Shown here piece by piece: positions 59,374-64,000 of a stretch of DNA of 64,000 nucleotides. The notes beneath the pieces were generated by a model that was not told where the DNA came from, ran no database searches, and saw nothing but the letters and a program-made list of their open reading frames with translations. The stretch lies in the sequence record OR062524, one strand, 5' to 3'. The stretch comes from Escherichia phage vB_EcoM_3A1_SA_NWU. The position numbers were made by a program, and so were the translations under genes. Numbering within the stretch: the first letter of the stretch is position 1; every line of letters begins with the position of its first letter.

Positions 59374-61398
59374 ATGAATTTAACAAGACCTAATAGTGCG
59401 ATAGCCGATCTGGTAGAAGCTACTTATCGAAAACGTCGCAGCTTTGAGGCAGGTTTTACATTACGTAATTCCCGTGAAGTTTTGCTGTTAGCAGCAGAAG
59501 GGAATTATTACCAATGGAAAGGAACTTTTCCTAAAGTAGTTCCAGCAAACTCTACGCCAGCCACCACAGGTGGTATTTCTTCCCTTGCATGGCAAAGTGT
59601 TGGGACCGCTGATGATATAGCAATTATCAATGCCAAGTTTACGGCAATGCAGCAACAAATTGATGATCTGTCGGAAACAATACCTGAAGCTGGTAAATCG
59701 GCTTATCAGATCGCACTTGATAATGGTTTTGTTGGAACAGAAGCACAATGGCTTGCCTCTTTGAAAGGGGATACTGGTGCTCAACTCAATATTAAAGGAT
59801 CATTAGCAAGCACTAGTGAACTACCATCCACAGGTAACGTTGCAGGGGATGGTTATATCGTAGGCGATGTAATCTACGCTTGGGATGGTTCTGTTTGGAA
59901 ACTTATTTCTTCTCTTGGACCAGAAGGTAAATCAGCTTACGAGGTATGGTTGGCAGATGGTAATACAGGATCTGTTTATGATTTTCTTACCTCTATAAAA
60001 GGTGATAAAGGCGATGTTGGTCCTACAGGGCCACAGGGAGCACCTGGTGTTAACGCCAACGGTTTTGATTATCGTGGAGATTTGCCTTCTACAAGTAACT
60101 TACCACAACCTAACTCTGAAAACGTAAGCCAAGCTTATTCTATCAGTGGTAATCTTTATGTCTCTAATGGGACAGCTTGGGTCAACATGGGTAATATTGT
60201 TGGTCCTCAAGGTCCACAAGGTGAGGCAGGTAAAGACGGTCTAGATGGAACAGATGGAGATGAAGGGAAATCTGCATATCAAAGTTGGCTGGATGCTGGT
60301 AATGAAGGGACAGAAGTAGATTTTATTGCCTCGCTTAAAGGTCCAAAAGGAGACAAGGGTGATCAAGGAGAGCGAGGTCCACAAGGCGAATTAGGTCCAC
60401 AAGGACCAGTAGGCGCAACAGGATCAGGCTTAGAGATTATCGGGGTTCTGAACAGCGAAGCTGAACTTCCTCCGACTGGAGAAGTAGGTGATGCATATAA
60501 AATTAATAATGATTTGTATGTTTGGGTCCAAGATGCTACGGAATGGATGAATGTTGGCAGTCTCGGAGGAACATCAATTACAGCTAAAGGTCATGTTCCG
60601 AACAGTGAAGCTCTCCCTGTTTACAATAACTATGGTGATGCTTACTTAACTGAAGACACTAGTAATCTTTACATCTATACCTACGATCAAGACACCAATT
60701 CCGCATCTTTTGTTGACATGGGAAGTATTAAAGGCGACAAAGGTGAAAAAGGGGATAAAGGAGATAAGGGTGATCCTGGAACAAACGGAACCAACGGTAC
60801 TGATGGGACCAACGGTAAGGACGGCGCACAGTGGTTTGTAGCAACAACTAATCCAGTCGCAGGAGACGGTGTTATCAATGATTACGCCTTCAATACTACC
60901 ACTGGAGCAGTGTTTAAGAAAACAGATTCTTCTACGTGGACACTTATAGGAACTCTTCCTAGTATACCAGAAGCCCCTCAAGACGGCTTGACGTATGGTC
61001 GTTCTGATGGAAACTGGATCGAAATATCAGGATCAGATCCTACGGAAGCTATAACACCAACTAGAGTTACAGCAGGTTTCATGGAACTTGAAACAACTAC
61101 TGCCAACTCTGGAGCATCTTGGACTCCTTCTGGAACTTCCAATATGTATGTTGTTACAGTAACTGACGCTCTGACAGTTGGAGCATGGCCTGGTGTCACT
61201 GGCTCTACAAAACCTAAAGCGTTTTCAGCAATGATTTATTTGATTCAAGATACAACGGGACACACGGTTACACTAGATGCGTCTTATGGAGCACTAAATG
61301 ATACAGAAATAGCAACTACTGCTAACGCAGTAACAATTTTGCAATTAACGTATCCTGGTGTGGGTGATATCGTGGACATGGTTGTTGTAACACGGTAA
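59374..61398 (+). CDS. collagen-like repeat tail fibre protein
   Basis: 674 aa; multiple Gly-X-Y runs (GDKGDVGPTGPQGAPG; GPKGDKGDQGERGPQGELGPQGPVGATG; GDKGEKGDKGDKGDPGTNGTNGTDGTNGKDG). Confidence 0.6.
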   Translation: MNLTRPNSAIADLVEATYRKRRSFEAGFTLRNSREVLLLAAEGNYYQWKGTFPKVVPANSTPATTGGISSLAWQSVGTADDIAIINAKFTAMQQQIDDLSETIPEAGKSAYQIALDNGFVGTEAQWLASLKGDTGAQLNIKGSLASTSELPSTGNVAGDGYIVGDVIYAWDGSVWKLISSLGPEGKSAYEVWLADGNTGSVYDFLTSIKGDKGDVGPTGPQGAPGVNANGFDYRGDLPSTSNLPQPNSENVSQAYSISGNLYVSNGTAWVNMGNIVGPQGPQGEAGKDGLDGTDGDEGKSAYQSWLDAGNEGTEVDFIASLKGPKGDKGDQGERGPQGELGPQGPVGATGSGLEIIGVLNSEAELPPTGEVGDAYKINNDLYVWVQDATEWMNVGSLGGTSITAKGHVPNSEALPVYNNYGDAYLTEDTSNLYIYTYDQDTNSASFVDMGSIKGDKGEKGDKGDKGDPGTNGTNGTDGTNGKDGAQWFVATTNPVAGDGVINDYAFNTTTGAVFKKTDSSTWTLIGTLPSIPEAPQDGLTYGRSDGNWIEISGSDPTEAITPTRVTAGFMELETTTANSGASWTPSGTSNMYVVTVTDALTVGAWPGVTGSTKPKAFSAMIYLIQDTTGHTVTLDASYGALNDTEIATTANAVTILQLTYPGVGDIVDMVVVTR

Positions 61399-61402
61399 CA
61401 GA

Positions 61403-61428
61403 AGCCCCGAAAGGGGCTTTCTTTTTAT
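61403..61428 (+). terminator. intrinsic terminator
   Basis: agccccgaaaggggctttcttttt. Confidence 0.65.
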
Positions 61429-61439
61429 GGAGGGTTTAA

Positions 61440-64000
61440 ATGTTTCCAATTCCAATATTTACTATTATGACCAGCACTGGTGTCGTTCCTCTGCCAGCAG
61501 GTATTGTTAAAAAAGTAATCACTTTAGATTACCCAGATAATGCTGGTAATTCTAACAGCAGTTTAGCAATTTTGCTTAATGATGGTAGATTGTTTACTCA
61601 AGGCGCAAACCTTTTTGGTGAGATTGCAGATGGAACTCGTAGTGCACGATTCAATAATTTCCACTTAGCTTCTACTGTAGTAGCGGACGTGTTTACCGCA
61701 GATCGTTGTTTTGTTATTAAAACTAACAGTGGGGGATGGCAATATTCAGGATTGACAGCAGGATTGGTAGGATCTATAGCAGCAGGTGGTACGGACGCAT
61801 GTGTAACTACTTGGACCAGCTTTCCATCTGTAATAACAGGGACTATCTCTTTAGCTAATCTTAAAGAGGTTAAGGGAGGATATAACAACACTCTCTGGTT
61901 AATGAATAGTGGTGTTCTTTATGGATCAGGTCAAAACACAGTAGGTAGTTTAGGTGCAAGTACTACTAACGAAGTTTCTACTCCTCGTCAGATAACAAGT
62001 GCAGCAGTTGCTTTTGATGCAGGTTACAACCAATGCTCTTATGTCAACAATGTGGGAACCTTGCGTGTTTGTGGAGCTAGTAAAGGTTTAGCAGGTAATA
62101 ATAACACAACAACAGCTTTTGTCAATGCCAAGATATCCGCTACTGAAACAGTGTATGTCAAAGATTACATCAATACAGTTTCCCAGACAATAGTTGTAGG
62201 AGATACCTCCGGTGGCACGGGTGCAGTAAACTACTTATATGTTAGATCTAATACAGAAACAACCTACACTAAACTGGATACCTTTGCAGCAGGTTTCTCA
62301 ACATGGAAATTTCCACCAAGCCGCCACTCTTTTTTCGTTGGGATCAATAATTCCTTGTGGGCGATTGGTAAGAACTACACTGCAAACTTAGGTTTGGGGT
62401 ATGATTCTGCGAGCGGAGATCCACTTCAAGTGGGAAAACCAGTTAAACCTGAAGGAGTGGGTTCCTGGGATATAAACAAGCTCACAAGCGTTCATACGCT
62501 GAATATGGATGTTACTAACCAATTAGGTTATCAAGGAACCTTTTTCGTTTATAATGGAGATATGTATTATTCCGGTATTTGGAAAGATGGAAAAGCCTCG
62601 TATCTGTTCAATAGTGGTCTAAACTATAATAAATTCACACCAATAGCAAGCTCCGTGATTACGGGTGATATTCTGGCAACTGGCTTAACTACGGATTCTT
62701 TAGGAATTTGTATTGTAGGTGGAACTAAACAGTTGACACATTCTGTTAGCCCAGAAGGAGGTAAACTTTTCAATATTAAATATACTTCTTCTGCCCCTGC
62801 AAACATGACAATATCGTCTACTGGTTTAATGACTTTCCATGCAGAAGGTGGTTTTGATGCAGGTATGACAGCCTTAAACGCTGAAGGAACAACTTTATCA
62901 GATACCTCTGGAGGATATGCTTCAACATTGAGTGTTTACACCCCTAGCTTATCTGCGATGGATGTAGGAACAACACAAACAATGGTAGCAGAAATAACGC
63001 CAACAGGAGCAGCAAGCTTACCTGGCATGGTTGTTGAGTATTTCTCTAATGACCCTACGGTAGCAACAGTTGACCCCGTTACAGGCGTTATTACAGCGGT
63101 TGCTGATGGAGGTTGTCGTATCGGTTGTAGAGCAACTTATCAAGGTGTGGTAACTGCCGAAGATAGTTCTTATCTCACAGTGAATGCTGTGGTGATTGTG
63201 ATGGATTATGATTTGACGCAAGAAACTATTCCGGCGGATGTAAAGGTCAACAGGAGTAACCGTTATGCCAGGGCTTCTGGAGATATCCTTGTACCTACAG
63301 AGAGTTCTGCTCCCGTAGCACCTTTAGAATATGTTGGTACAACTCCACAAGGTAGACGTGTTGTAGCAGCCAACCGTACACATATCTTTATCAACAATAA
63401 CTTGACAACAGCTTCCCCGTGGTTGAAGACGAACTTGACAGTCACAGCATCAACAATCAACTCTCCGGTTGGAACTACGGCTAACACTTACAAGTTAACA
63501 CCTTCTACAACTTCAGGACAACATATTTTATCAGCAGTGAATACAGCTTCTGATATTACAGCAGGTAAGCACTGGGCGGCATCCGTATTCTTGAAGCCAG
63601 ATGGGATCACTAAAGTGAAACTCAAATTGACTTCAGGAGATGAGATTAACGAAGGGACTTATGATCTTGTAGCTGGAACATTTACAGGTGCAGATGCAAA
63701 CATAATCGATATGGGGAATGGTTGGTATCGTGTAATTCTACACAAAGTGACAGTTGCCAAACAAGCATCTATAACCTATGAGATTATAGCTTTGAATGCA
63801 AGTGGATCAGACACTTTCGCAGGAGATGGTACGGCAGGTCTTATTGCTTGGGTTCCACAGCTTGAGATGGGTGATATGACAAATCCAGTTTGGGCGGGGA
63901 CACCATTTGTTTGTTCTTATGCACGAGACACTACCAGTGCTGTTACCTTCACTATTCCTAAGAATGGACATACTGGCGTGGACATTTACCACACTGATGG
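61440..64000 (+). CDS. large fibre/adhesin-like protein with RCC1-like repeats and Ig-like (Big_2-type) segment; 3' end beyond window
   Basis: Not in ORF track (no stop within window); ATG 61440 with GGAGGG RBS; translation MFPIPIFTIMTSTGVVPLPAG...NDGRLFTQGANLFGEIADGTR...; later DPVTGVITAVADGGCRIGCRATYQG. Confidence 0.45.
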   Translation, partial: MFPIPIFTIMTSTGVVPLPAGIVKKVITLDYPDNAGNSNSSLAILLNDGRLFTQGANLFGEIADGTRSARFNNFHLASTVVADVFTADRCFVIKTNSGGWQYSGLTAGLVGSIAAGGTDACVTTWTSFPSVITGTISLANLKEVKGGYNNTLWLMNSGVLYGSGQNTVGSLGASTTNEVSTPRQITSAAVAFDAGYNQCSYVNNVGTLRVCGASKGLAGNNNTTTAFVNAKISATETVYVKDYINTVSQTIVVGDTSGGTGAVNYLYVRSNTETTYTKLDTFAAGFSTWKFPPSRHSFFVGINNSLWAIGKNYTANLGLGYDSASGDPLQVGKPVKPEGVGSWDINKLTSVHTLNMDVTNQLGYQGTFFVYNGDMYYSGIWKDGKASYLFNSGLNYNKFTPIASSVITGDILATGLTTDSLGICIVGGTKQLTHSVSPEGGKLFNIKYTSSAPANMTISSTGLMTFHAEGGFDAGMTALNAEGTTLSDTSGGYASTLSVYTPSLSAMDVGTTQTMVAEITPTGAASLPGMVVEYFSNDPTVATVDPVTGVITAVADGGCRIGCRATYQGVVTAEDSSYLTVNAVVIVMDYDLTQETIPADVKVNRSNRYARASGDILVPTESSAPVAPLEYVGTTPQGRRVVAANRTHIFINNNLTTASPWLKTNLTVTASTINSPVGTTANTYKLTPSTTSGQHILSAVNTASDITAGKHWAASVFLKPDGITKVKLKLTSGDEINEGTYDLVAGTFTGADANIIDMGNGWYRVILHKVTVAKQASITYEIIALNASGSDTFAGDGTAGLIAWVPQLEMGDMTNPVWAGTPFVCSYARDTTSAVTFTIPKNGHTGVDIYHTD

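What the first reader, a model, noticed from the sequence alone, without database searches (positions are those of the whole stretch)
61440..64000. Unlisted long ORF with RCC1-like repeats and Ig-like domain running off the window
Absent from the ORF track because no stop occurs before position 64000. It has a good RBS and repeated G..G.LG-type segments resembling RCC1 beta-propeller blades, followed by a Big_2-like motif. RCC1-like propellers are rare in phage fibres.
Basis: partly seen in the sequence, partly recalled or inferred. Interest (0 to 1): 0.45.

Follow-up and report, generated by a model that had tools for sequence, protein, structure and literature searches.

The report
Known modular phage adhesin gene, truncated
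This is most of a catalogued but uncharacterised 891-residue virion protein gene of phAPEC8-like E. coli phages, a string of binding domains (propeller, two Ig domains, an exchangeable sugar-binding-type tip), and it was missed only because it runs off the end of the window, so the finding is real but ordinary.

Summary
Window 61440-64000 (+) is an uninterrupted 853-codon frame with a GGAGGG RBS. The window is 100% identical to Escherichia phage vB_EcoM_10C3_SA_NWU (Phapecoctavirus), where the gene runs 115 nt further to give 891 aa. It is the orthologue of phAPEC8 gp086 ("tail protein", PHROG 11922) and is the last gene of the tail-fibre cluster.

Architecture: a conserved N-terminal peptide (MFPIP...), a seven-bladed RCC1-like propeller (aa ~18-405), two Big_2 Ig domains (411-587), a conserved junction (VVIVMDYDLTQETIP), a CBM-fold module (645-815), and a small terminal beta-domain. 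The CBM-fold module is homologous to the capsule-binding head fibre of the Rhodobacter gene transfer agent, the Sf11 Dit appendage and the Pa193/E217 baseplate triplex proteins.

The distal module is swapped among near-identical phages for a leucine-rich-repeat cassette, or is absent. The propeller is also optional. Only the N-terminal peptide and the Ig pair are constant.

Best reading: a low-copy, probably monomeric, accessory surface-glycan adhesin.

They are common and have been detected in virions, but are usually mislabelled "DNA condensation protein".

Novelty is low: the sequence and family are already in the databases, and the function is untested.

The parts
61401..61428 (+). Terminator-like GC hairpin (GAAGCCCC-GAAA-GGGGCTTT) plus a T-run, immediately upstream of the RBS
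   Evidence: Found by the scan. The same position is annotated as a terminator in phAPEC8. The hairpin is conserved, with compensatory stem changes, in phi92, EmilieFrey and the rV5-like phage HeinrichReichert.
61429..61434 (+). Ribosome-binding site GGAGGG, 5 nt before the ATG
   Evidence: Read directly from the sequence.
61440..64000 (+). Codons 1-853 of an 891-codon gene. The stop would lie at 64113-64115, outside the window. Orthologue of phAPEC8 gp086 and member of PHROG 11922.
61440..61490 (+). Conserved N-terminal peptide (aa 1-17, MFPIPIFTIMTSTGVVP), with motif M-[FYIL]-P-[IF]-P followed by a hydrophobic run. Inferred virion-docking element.
   Evidence: M1, P3 and P5 are invariant in alignment A1. 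The motif is present in all 37 homologues that have a complete N-terminus, in the propeller-less phi92 gp152/P0041/P0044/P0047, and in the rV5-type gp027. Codons differ synonymously between phages. The motif is unique to this ORF within the window.
61491..62654 (+). RCC1-like seven-bladed beta-propeller (aa ~18-405). Approximate blades: 23-78, 81-127, 141-186, 189-229, 239-290, 299-355, and 364-401 plus an N-terminal strand.
   Evidence: Pfam. Model pLDDT is 85-95 over aa 20-300 and 64-83 over aa 300-400, with the strand pattern given. Foldseek: UVR8 E=8e-15, TM 0.70.
62670..63200 (+). Two tandem Big_2 Ig-like domains (aa 411-587)
   Evidence: Pfam Big_2 in two stretches. pLDDT 80-91. 62% identical to phi92 gp152. 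About 45% identical to the Ig domains of siphovirus major tail proteins.
63189..63233 (+). Conserved junction VVIVMDYDLTQETIP (aa 584-598) at the point where C-terminal cassettes are exchanged
   Evidence: The identity profile breaks at aa ~585-590. The same junction precedes the cassette in P0041 and P0044, which have different upstream architectures.
63234..63371 (+). Low-confidence linker (aa 599-644)
   Evidence: pLDDT is below 50 in both models.
63372..63884 (+). CBM-fold beta-sandwich module (aa 645-815) with motifs GNGWYR and GDGT.G...W.PQLE
63942..64000 (+). Start of a small terminal beta-domain (aa 835-891, ending ...DWGSKFITGLKYYD), cut by the window end
   Evidence: pLDDT 75-91. It aligns with the C-terminus of Sf11 gp17 (WGSKYITTIKFN).

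Best explanation
The ORF is the phAPEC8 gp086-type structural gene, the last gene of the tail-fibre cluster of a Phapecoctavirus. I read its product as a low-copy, probably monomeric, beads-on-a-string accessory adhesin. A short conserved N-terminal peptide docks it to the virion (inferred). The RCC1-like propeller and two Ig domains form a conserved proximal body and spacer, and the propeller may be a second binding surface (inferred). The exchangeable distal CBM-fold module binds a host surface polysaccharide reversibly, which raises the local concentration of virions at the cell surface and tunes host range (inferred from homology to the capsule-binding RcGTA head fibre). Specificity changes by recombination at the conserved VVIVMDYDLTQETIP junction, which swaps the distal cassette (the mosaicism is shown by sequence). 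Shown by sequence or by computation: the gene, its domain architecture, the homologies, the mosaicism, the synteny, and the conserved upstream hairpin. Taken from the literature: the rV5 counterpart is present in virions, and the RcGTA fibre binds capsule. Inferred only: the docking mode, the oligomeric state, glycan binding, and the accessory role.
For: Identity: 100% DNA identity to OR062526.1 and 99.7% to phAPEC8. PHROG 11922 'tail protein' matches end to end at 1566.6 bits. The gene follows the baseplate J, baseplate, short-fibre, chaperone, colanidase-type spike and collagen-like fibre genes.
Virion association: rV5 gp27, which sits at the same position and shares the N-terminus (39% identity over aa 1-195), was detected in virions with 3 peptides and 9 spectra. 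PVP-SE1 gp040 is listed among structural proteins.
Folds: propeller and CBM-like beta-sandwich.
Functional analogy: the distal module matches RcGTA Rcc01080 at E=5.7e-14 with a single sequence and 1.9e-63 with the family profile. That fibre is a single subunit anchored only by residues 2-10, and a fluorescent fusion binds capsulated cells at 100% against about 4% for a capsule-less mutant.
Context of the module: it is a peripheral add-on on single chains in the Sf11 Dit and in Pa193 gp46/E217 gp45.
Cassette exchange: P0007 is 96-100% identical over aa 1-500 but 14-24% after aa 586, while P0002 and P0005 show the reverse pattern. The alternative cassettes are a leucine-rich-repeat array, an unidentified module, or nothing. 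The same cassette occurs at 92% identity on a propeller-less scaffold in Justusliebigvirus.
Accessory role and low copy: phi92 carries only fragments of the gene (gp152 plus gp153, the latter 93% identical to aa 335-628 of the intact 939-aa allele) and is still a viable phage. A conserved terminator-like hairpin precedes the gene.
Against: There is no direct evidence for this protein itself: no proteomics, mutant or binding assay for a Phapecoctavirus was found. The region of Rcc01080 and of Sf11 gp17 that is homologous to this protein is unresolved in their PDB entries, and the Sf11 authors call it 'of unknown function'. Pa193 gp46 has no reported glycan-binding role. A CBM fold alone does not prove sugar binding. 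The oligomeric state was not tested, because no multimer prediction was available. The conserved N-terminal peptide could be a propeller-closing strand, or simply inherited sequence, rather than an anchor. Its pLDDT is only 49-62. The location on the virion (baseplate, tail or head) is unknown. The 2026 phi92 structure assigns nothing to this locus and leaves fibre II unassigned. The disrupted alleles in Ro121lw and SF1-1 could be sequencing or assembly artefacts.
Confidence: 0.6

Rival explanations
1. It is a classical trimeric lateral tail fibre or primary receptor-binding protein that is essential for infection, which is the 'phage fibre' implied by the first reader and by BASEL-style annotation of its relatives as 'lateral tail fiber protein'.
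For: The gene lies within the tail-fibre gene cluster. The C-terminus is exchanged, as in typical receptor-binding proteins. The BASEL authors annotated the rV5-like and phi92-like counterparts as lateral tail fibre proteins. Fibre II of phi92 is still unassigned.
Against: Pfam and PHROG scans and the models show no coiled coil, beta-helix, collagen repeat, known fibre-anchor domain or C-terminal chaperone. All of its domain types are normally monomeric, and homologous modules sit on single chains in RcGTA, Sf11 and Pa193. phi92 itself has only a fragmented gene yet displays three fibre sets. The rV5 counterpart gave only 9 spectra in virions.
Confidence: 0.17
2. It is a Hoc-like decoration protein on the head or tail surface. 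Its Ig and lectin-type domains would stick the virion to mucus or other environmental glycans rather than to the host cell receptor.
For: Ig-like domains are typical of decoration proteins (established knowledge: T4 Hoc, the C-terminal domain of lambda gpV). The Ig pair is about 45% identical to Ig domains on siphovirus major tail proteins. The closest functionally studied relative of the distal module is a head fibre. The neighbouring collagen-like protein's phi92 homologue, gp151, resembles a head-spike protein.
Against: The gene is encoded in the baseplate and fibre cluster, not among the head genes. The distal cassette varies between near-identical phages in the manner of host-range determinants. 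The RcGTA head fibre binds the capsule of the recipient cell, not an environmental matrix.
Confidence: 0.15
3. It is an internal 'DNA condensation' or chromosome-condensation protein, as RCC1-type phage proteins are commonly annotated.
For: The evidence is by name transfer only. PHROGs 4219, 7220 and 16766 are filed as 'regulator of chromosome condensation' under nucleotide metabolism. BFVD entries are named 'DNA condensation protein'. The W70 authors suggest a role in encapsulating DNA.
Against: The RCC1 fold is a generic binding scaffold, and the Ran-GEF or chromatin role belongs to one eukaryotic member (established knowledge). Here the propeller is fused to extracellular-type Ig domains and to CBM or LRR binding modules, and the gene lies in the fibre cluster. 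No DNA-binding domain was found.
Confidence: 0.03

Closest known systems
phAPEC8 gp086 (YP_007348548.1, 'tail protein') / PHROG 11922 / WIL78710.1 of vB_EcoM_10C3_SA_NWU
   Same: It is the same gene. DNA identity is 99.7-100%, with the same length (891 aa), the same position and the same flanking terminators.
   Different: There is no difference in sequence. These records carry no functional or domain-level description ('hypothetical protein' or 'tail protein').
Salmonella phage PVP-SE1 gp040 and the 4MG/SSE121-type proteins (564-609 aa)
   Same: They are orthologous in the N-terminal peptide, the propeller and the Ig pair, at 37-44% identity over aa 1-580, and occupy the same locus. PVP-SE1 gp040 is listed as a structural protein.
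   Different: They stop after the Ig pair and have no distal cassette.
RcGTA head-spike fibre Rcc01080 (GhsB; sequence held in PDB 6TB9 and related entries)
   Same: Its residues 55-274 are homologous to aa 615-831 here, including the GNGWYR and GDG.SG..WGAQLE motifs. It is a flexible single chain held by a short N-terminal peptide, and it binds capsular polysaccharide.
   Different: It is attached to capsid vertices through a dedicated pentameric base protein. It has no propeller or Ig domains. Its anchor peptide (IALGLGLGL) is unrelated to MFPIPIF. The homologous region is not resolved experimentally.
Shigella phage Sf11 distal tail protein gp17 (PDB 9OCC), C-terminal appendage
   Same: Its residues 195-455 align with aa 621-889 here (E=2.4e-20), covering both the CBM-fold module and the terminal beta-domain with its WGSK(F/Y)IT ending.
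   Different: There the module is fused to a Dit ring protein of a siphovirus. It was not modelled, and its function is stated to be unknown.
Pbunavirus baseplate triplex proteins Pa193 gp46 (9B45) and E217 gp45 (8ENV)
   Different: There the module is an insertion in a core baseplate wedge protein. No ligand is known.
Eukaryotic RCC1-like domains (UVR8, RPGR, HERC2, RCC1)
   Same: They share the seven-bladed propeller fold (TM up to 0.70) and the repeat signature.
   Different: Identity is only 12-17%. There is no reason to expect GEF, chromatin or photoreceptor activity. Here the propeller is an extracellular virion module.

Membership tests
PHROG 11922 / phAPEC8 gp086 orthologue group | End-to-end sequence match to the family profile and to reference members | tested here: met
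   1566.6 bits, aa 1-853 against profile positions 1-832 of 870. 99.7-100% DNA identity to phAPEC8 and 10C3.
PHROG 11922 / phAPEC8 gp086 orthologue group | Conserved genomic position: last + strand gene of the tail-fibre cluster, before the switch to the - strand replication genes | tested here: met
   The same position holds for the counterparts in rV5-like, phi92 and EmilieFrey phages.
RCC1-like domain (Pfam RCC1 PF00415 / WD40_RLD PF25390; RCC1/BLIP-II superfamily) | Seven-bladed beta-propeller fold | tested here: met
   A confident model with about 28 strands arranged in seven four-stranded groups. Foldseek probability 1.00 to UVR8, RPGR, HERC2 and RCC1, with TM 0.5-0.70.
RCC1-like domain (Pfam RCC1 PF00415 / WD40_RLD PF25390; RCC1/BLIP-II superfamily) | Sequence score above Pfam's curated thresholds | tested here: inconclusive
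   PF00415 scores 24.2 bits against a 21.7-bit cutoff, with one repeat matched. PF25390 scores 42.6 bits against a 150-bit cutoff. RCC1_2 scores 16.1 bits against 22.
RCC1-like domain (Pfam RCC1 PF00415 / WD40_RLD PF25390; RCC1/BLIP-II superfamily) | Guanine-nucleotide-exchange or chromatin function of RCC1 proper | not testable with these tools
   No partner GTPase exists in this system. The function is not expected from the fold alone.
Big_2 bacterial Ig-like domain (PF02368) | Profile match above the curated threshold, and an Ig-like beta-sandwich | tested here: met
   41.9 bits against a 22.8-bit cutoff, in two stretches. pLDDT 80-91 with all-beta secondary structure.
'GNGWYR' CBM-fold module family (RcGTA Rcc01080 / Sf11 gp17 C-terminus / Pa193 gp46 insertion); no Pfam model | Significant sequence homology, including the GNGWYR and GDG.(S/A)G...W.(A/P)QLE motifs | tested here: met
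   phmmer E=5.7e-14 (Rcc01080) and 2.4e-20 (Sf11 gp17). The motifs MGNGWYR and GDGTAGLIAWVPQLE are present. The family profile hits all four PDB sequences.
'GNGWYR' CBM-fold module family (RcGTA Rcc01080 / Sf11 gp17 C-terminus / Pa193 gp46 insertion); no Pfam model | Beta-sandwich (CBM4/22-like) fold | tested here: met
'GNGWYR' CBM-fold module family (RcGTA Rcc01080 / Sf11 gp17 C-terminus / Pa193 gp46 insertion); no Pfam model | Binding of surface polysaccharide | not testable with these tools
   This is known only for the RcGTA fibre as a whole.
Canonical trimeric phage tail fibre or tailspike | A trimerising shaft (coiled coil, triple beta-helix, collagen or beta-helix) and a recognised N-terminal virion-anchor domain | tested here: not met
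   None was found by Pfam, PHROGs or the two models. The two upstream genes, by contrast, carry Tail_spike_N, with collagen repeats in one and a weak, sub-threshold beta-helix match in the other.
Canonical trimeric phage tail fibre or tailspike | Homotrimeric assembly | not tested
   No multimer prediction or experiment was available.

The most novel reading that the evidence does not exclude
The terminal gene of the fibre cluster in rV5-, PVP-SE1-, phAPEC8- and phi92-like phages may encode a distinct class of peptide-anchored, monomeric, combinatorial adhesins. The architecture would be an N-terminal peptide, an optional RCC1-like propeller, an Ig pair, an optional esterase-like module, and an optional CBM or LRR cassette. 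They would be mechanistically parallel to GTA head fibres. By extension, the many virion-associated phage 'RCC1 / DNA condensation' proteins would be surface-binding modules rather than DNA-packaging factors.
Probability: 0.3. Interest if true: 0.5.

Novelty: already known. Interest (0 to 1): 0.27.

Why it matters
For genome annotation, the finding is a window-edge artefact: it is a normal, already deposited gene. [quoted passage not shown] The domain map here gives concrete handles: a defined cassette junction for host-range engineering, a candidate glycan-binding module with a very large uncharacterised family (5,422 cluster representatives and no Pfam model), and a correction to the widespread 'DNA condensation protein' label on phage RCC1-like proteins. 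None of this is established experimentally.

Tried and rejected
- A broad literature search on RCC1, phAPEC8 and tail returned almost only eukaryotic RCC1 papers. A more targeted search found no paper describing an RCC1-like propeller in a phage receptor-binding protein.
- The PVP-SE1 (Santos 2011) and phi92 (Schwarzer 2012) papers are not held, so I could not read their primary virion proteomics. I used a later comparative table instead, but its bold marking for MS detection is lost in the text version.
- The word-indexed homologue search on the C-terminal module found only 4 proteins. The exhaustive HMMER search was needed.
- Pfam finds nothing in aa 586-891, even at E up to 0.01.
- The first full-length model was unusable for aa 583-700. 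A domain-level alignment gave a confident model of the core module, aa 645-815.
- I guessed that phi92 gp153 was a wrong-strand call of the phAPEC8 gp085 homologue. This was rejected. It is in fact a fragment of the intact EmilieFrey/alia-type gene.
- There is no compositional anomaly across the cassette boundary, so composition gives no evidence of recent foreign origin.
- No sigma-70-like promoter lies between the upstream terminator-like hairpin and the gene.
- The SASA (esterase) match to the middle module of the phi92-like allele is below threshold (E=0.0079, 16.3 bits against a 24.8-bit cutoff) and is only a hint.
Full report
OBSERVATION. Window 61440-64000 on the + strand translates into 853 codons without a stop. 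The other five frames of the same stretch contain 29-77 stops, and base composition gives P of about 2e-25 for an open frame of this length. The ORF lister skips it only because it does not list ORFs that run off the source. GGAGGG lies at 61429-61434, 5 nt before the ATG.

IDENTITY. Megablast of 61300-64000 finds 79 phage records. Two of them (vB_EcoM_10C3_SA_NWU and vB_EcoM_118_SA_NWU) are 100% identical, and phAPEC8 is 99.7% identical. The window therefore comes from a Phapecoctavirus (Stephanstirmvirinae). In the identical record the CDS is 2676 nt (891 aa plus a stop), so it ends 115 nt beyond the window and is followed by a hairpin terminator. The phAPEC8 orthologue is gp086, annotated 'tail protein'. 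PHROG 11922 ('tail protein') matches end to end at 1566.6 bits. Upstream on the same strand lie a baseplate-J-like wedge gene, a baseplate protein, a short tail fibre, a fibre assembly chaperone, a small lipoprotein, a 1017-aa colanidase-type tailspike and a 674-aa collagen-like fibre with a Tail_spike_N domain. Downstream, transcription switches to the minus-strand replication genes. This is the last gene of the tail-fibre cluster.

DOMAIN ARCHITECTURE.
- Propeller. Pfam gives WD40_RLD at E=6.6e-11 (below its curated cutoff), one RCC1 repeat above cutoff, and Big_2 above cutoff in two stretches. An AlphaFold2 model built on 28 homologues is confident for aa ~20-400 (pLDDT mostly 85-95) and shows seven groups of four strands. 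Foldseek against the PDB returns UVR8 (E=8e-15, TM 0.70 normalised by target), RPGR, HERC2 and RCC1, all at probability 1.00. So aa ~18-405 is an RCC1-like seven-bladed propeller.
- Ig pair. aa 411-587 forms two Big_2 Ig-like domains (pLDDT 80-91).
- Distal module. A sequence search of the PDB matched aa 615-831 to the head-spike fibre Rcc01080 of the Rhodobacter capsulatus gene transfer agent (E=5.7e-14). Pfam has no model for this region. An exhaustive HMMER search nevertheless found 5,422 cluster representatives at E<=1e-3 and 992 at E<=1e-10, often as 2-12 tandem copies in giant proteins. PHROGs files the relatives as 'tail protein' or 'virion structural protein'.
- Sequence relatives with PDB entries. 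A profile of the module hits four PDB sequences: Rcc01080 (1.9e-63), Sf11 gp17 (4.6e-40), Pa193 gp46 (1.8e-23) and E217 gp45 (2.6e-23). The Sf11 alignment extends through the terminal WGSK(F/Y)IT motif.

WHAT IS KNOWN ABOUT THOSE RELATIVES. The RcGTA head fibre is a single subunit per head spike. Only residues 2-10 are resolved, bound to a pentameric base, and the rest is flexible and mediates attachment to the capsule. A fluorescent fusion bound 100% to wild-type cells against about 4% to a capsule-less mutant. Sf11 gp17 is the distal tail protein. Only residues 3-165 were modelled, and the homologous C-terminus is described as 'a large extra appendage ... of currently unknown function'. Pa193 gp46 is a core triplex protein with no reported ligand. 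The module is therefore resolved experimentally only in Pa193 and E217, and its only functional evidence is capsule binding by the RcGTA fibre. In every known context it sits on a single chain at the periphery of the particle.

MODULARITY. Per-segment identities show a sharp break at aa ~585-590. P0007 (tuntematon type) is 96-100% identical over aa 1-500 but 14-24% beyond aa 586. P0002 and P0005 are 77-86% identical in the N-terminal part but 96-100% in the C-terminal part. Seunavirus-type homologues (564-609 aa, including PVP-SE1 gp040) end after the Ig pair. The tuntematon-type cassette is a leucine-rich-repeat array (repeated GCTSLTxIPxxLF), and Pfam detects DUF285 in a related variant. Among sequenced phages, aa 1-580 occurs at >=95% identity in 64 records, while the CBM cassette occurs at >=95% in 30. 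So roughly half of the close relatives carry a different tip. The same cassette occurs at about 92% identity in phi92-like Justusliebigvirus phages (alia and EmilieFrey bas61_0035, 942 aa). There it follows the N-terminal peptide, the Ig pair and a ~440-aa middle module that gives a weak, sub-threshold esterase (SASA) hint. Those proteins have no propeller. Shorter relatives (about 490 aa) consist of the peptide, the Ig pair and the cassette. The junction V(V/I)MDYDLTQET(L/I)P is conserved in front of the cassette in all of these backgrounds. The rV5-type counterpart (gp027, 1878 aa) shares the peptide and aa 1-195 at 39% identity.

THE CONSTANT PART. Across all of these architectures, the invariant elements are the extreme N-terminus, M-[FYIL]-P-[IF]-P followed by a hydrophobic run, and the Ig domains. 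M1, P3 and P5 are invariant in the alignment. The motif is present in all 37 homologues with a complete N-terminus, and in propeller-less members, where it runs straight into the Ig pair. The codons differ synonymously between genera, so the constraint acts on the protein. The motif occurs nowhere else in coding frames of the window. By analogy with the RcGTA fibre, I infer that this peptide is the docking element. This is an inference. In the model, residues 8-17 form strands next to the last blade at low confidence, so a role in closing the propeller cannot be excluded for the propeller-bearing members.

VIRION ASSOCIATION, ABUNDANCE AND DISPENSABILITY. rV5 gp27 was detected in purified virions with 3 peptides, 9 spectra and 3.1% coverage, against 1077-2030 spectra for the two most abundant proteins listed. 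PVP-SE1 gp040 is listed among structural proteins in a comparative table. A terminator-like hairpin sits directly before the RBS and is conserved, with compensatory stem changes, in phi92, EmilieFrey and an rV5-like phage. This fits attenuated read-through and low copy number. In phi92 itself the locus is fragmented. gp152 is the peptide plus the Ig pair (62% identical to aa 411-587 here). gp153 is 93% identical to aa 335-628 of the intact 939-aa allele. The cassette is missing. phi92 is nevertheless a viable phage with a broad host range, which argues that the distal parts are accessory. It may also explain why the 2026 whole-virion structure assigns nothing to this locus. Two further records carry small lesions: a 127-nt tandem duplication in Ro121lw and a 1-nt deletion in a G5 run in SF1-1. 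These could be real or artefacts.

ARE RCC1 PROPELLERS RARE IN PHAGES? No. A fold search of predicted viral structures returns dozens of phage RCC1-like propellers: PVP-SE1 gp40, Cronobacter CR9 and GAP32, PBECO4, slurp01, Yersinia fHe-Yen9, Bacillus SP-15, Erwinia jumbo phages, and a Pseudomonas phage Littlefix 'tail fiber protein'. PHROGs has several such families. Three RCC1-type proteins were found by MS in W70 virions. They are typically labelled 'DNA condensation protein' or 'regulator of chromosome condensation', and PHROGs files them under nucleotide metabolism. This looks like name transfer rather than evidence. No held paper describes an RCC1-like propeller as a phage receptor-binding module, so the function of the propeller remains open.

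MECHANISM AND RIVALS. Best reading (confidence about 0.6): a low-copy, probably monomeric, peptide-anchored accessory adhesin. Its exchangeable distal CBM-fold module binds a host surface polysaccharide reversibly, while the Ig pair acts as a spacer and the propeller is a conserved proximal body or a second binding surface. Rivals:
- A canonical trimeric lateral fibre (about 0.17). It is disfavoured by the lack of any trimerising element and by the fragmented phi92 allele.
- A Hoc-like decoration protein that binds environmental glycans (about 0.15).
- An internal DNA-condensation protein (about 0.03). It is supported only by names.

VERDICT. The finding is real but ordinary. It is a deposited, catalogued phage structural gene that was cut by the window edge. 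Its rarity argument is not supported, and it missed the most informative module. The sequence and family are already known. The functional reading offered here is untested.

Noticed in passing
window 61401-61428; also L004:16282-16320, L003:8962-9000, L008:5012-5050: A terminator-like GC hairpin plus T-run sits directly in front of the RBS of this gene. It is conserved in four phages of three genera, with compensatory stem changes (GCCCC/GGGGC against CCGCTCC/GGGGCGG). This suggests regulated read-through into the last gene of the fibre cluster.
   Followed up: partly
window 63372-63884 (aa 645-815) and proteins P0044-P0191: The 'GNGWYR / GDGTSG..WGAQLE' CBM-fold module has 5,422 cluster representatives at E<=1e-3 and forms arrays of up to 12 tandem copies in proteins of up to 3,693 aa. 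It has no Pfam model in the copy searched.
   Followed up: partly
PDB 6TB9 (Rcc01080) and 9OCC (Sf11 gp17): Both PDB entries list full-length sequences that match this protein strongly. In each, however, the homologous region is unmodelled (only residues 2-10 and 3-165 respectively were built). A sequence hit to 'a solved structure' is misleading here. Only Pa193 gp46 and E217 gp45 have the module resolved.
   Followed up: yes
L004:16321-17983 (phi92 gp152 and gp153): phi92 gp152 (202 aa) and gp153 (295 aa, annotated 'no RBS identified; weak prodigal statistics') are fragments of one ~940-aa gene that is intact in the phages alia and EmilieFrey. gp153 is 93% identical to aa 335-628 of the intact protein, and the distal cassette is missing.
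   Followed up: yes
window 61731-61735 (G5 run) and about 62738-62864; L007:1792; L006:1780-2035: Two near-identical phages carry lesions in this gene: SF1-1 has a 1-nt deletion in the G5 run, and Ro121lw has a 127-nt tandem duplication that splits the CDS in two. These may be real inactivating mutations or sequencing or assembly artefacts.
   Followed up: partly
window 59374-61398 (+): The upstream 674-aa collagen-like protein has a Tail_spike_N domain. [quoted passage not shown] Whether the last genes of this 'tail-fibre' cluster sit on the tail or the head is unsettled.
   Followed up: no
GenBank records listed: Records with near-identical Phapecoctavirus or rV5-like sequence at this locus are deposited as Acinetobacter phage vB_AbaM_ABPW7 (98.6% DNA identity), Pseudomonas phage PsgM04F and about 20 'Campylobacter phage' entries. 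These host labels look doubtful and may reflect contamination or co-isolation.
   Followed up: no
PHROGs 4219, 7220 and 16766; BFVD entries; W70_237-239: Phage RCC1-like proteins are widely labelled 'regulator of chromosome condensation' or 'DNA condensation protein', and PHROGs places them under nucleotide metabolism. The label appears to be transferred from the eukaryotic family name. Here, and in several hits, the propeller is fused to Ig, CBM or fibre modules.
   Followed up: partly
L008:5051-7879 (EmilieFrey bas61_0035) and P0044 aa 200-640: The phi92-like intact allele carries a ~440-aa middle module containing the motif 'IIWGQGENDA'. It gives a weak, sub-threshold match to the SASA carbohydrate esterase family (E=0.0079), so an enzymatic member of this adhesin family is possible.
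   Followed up: partly
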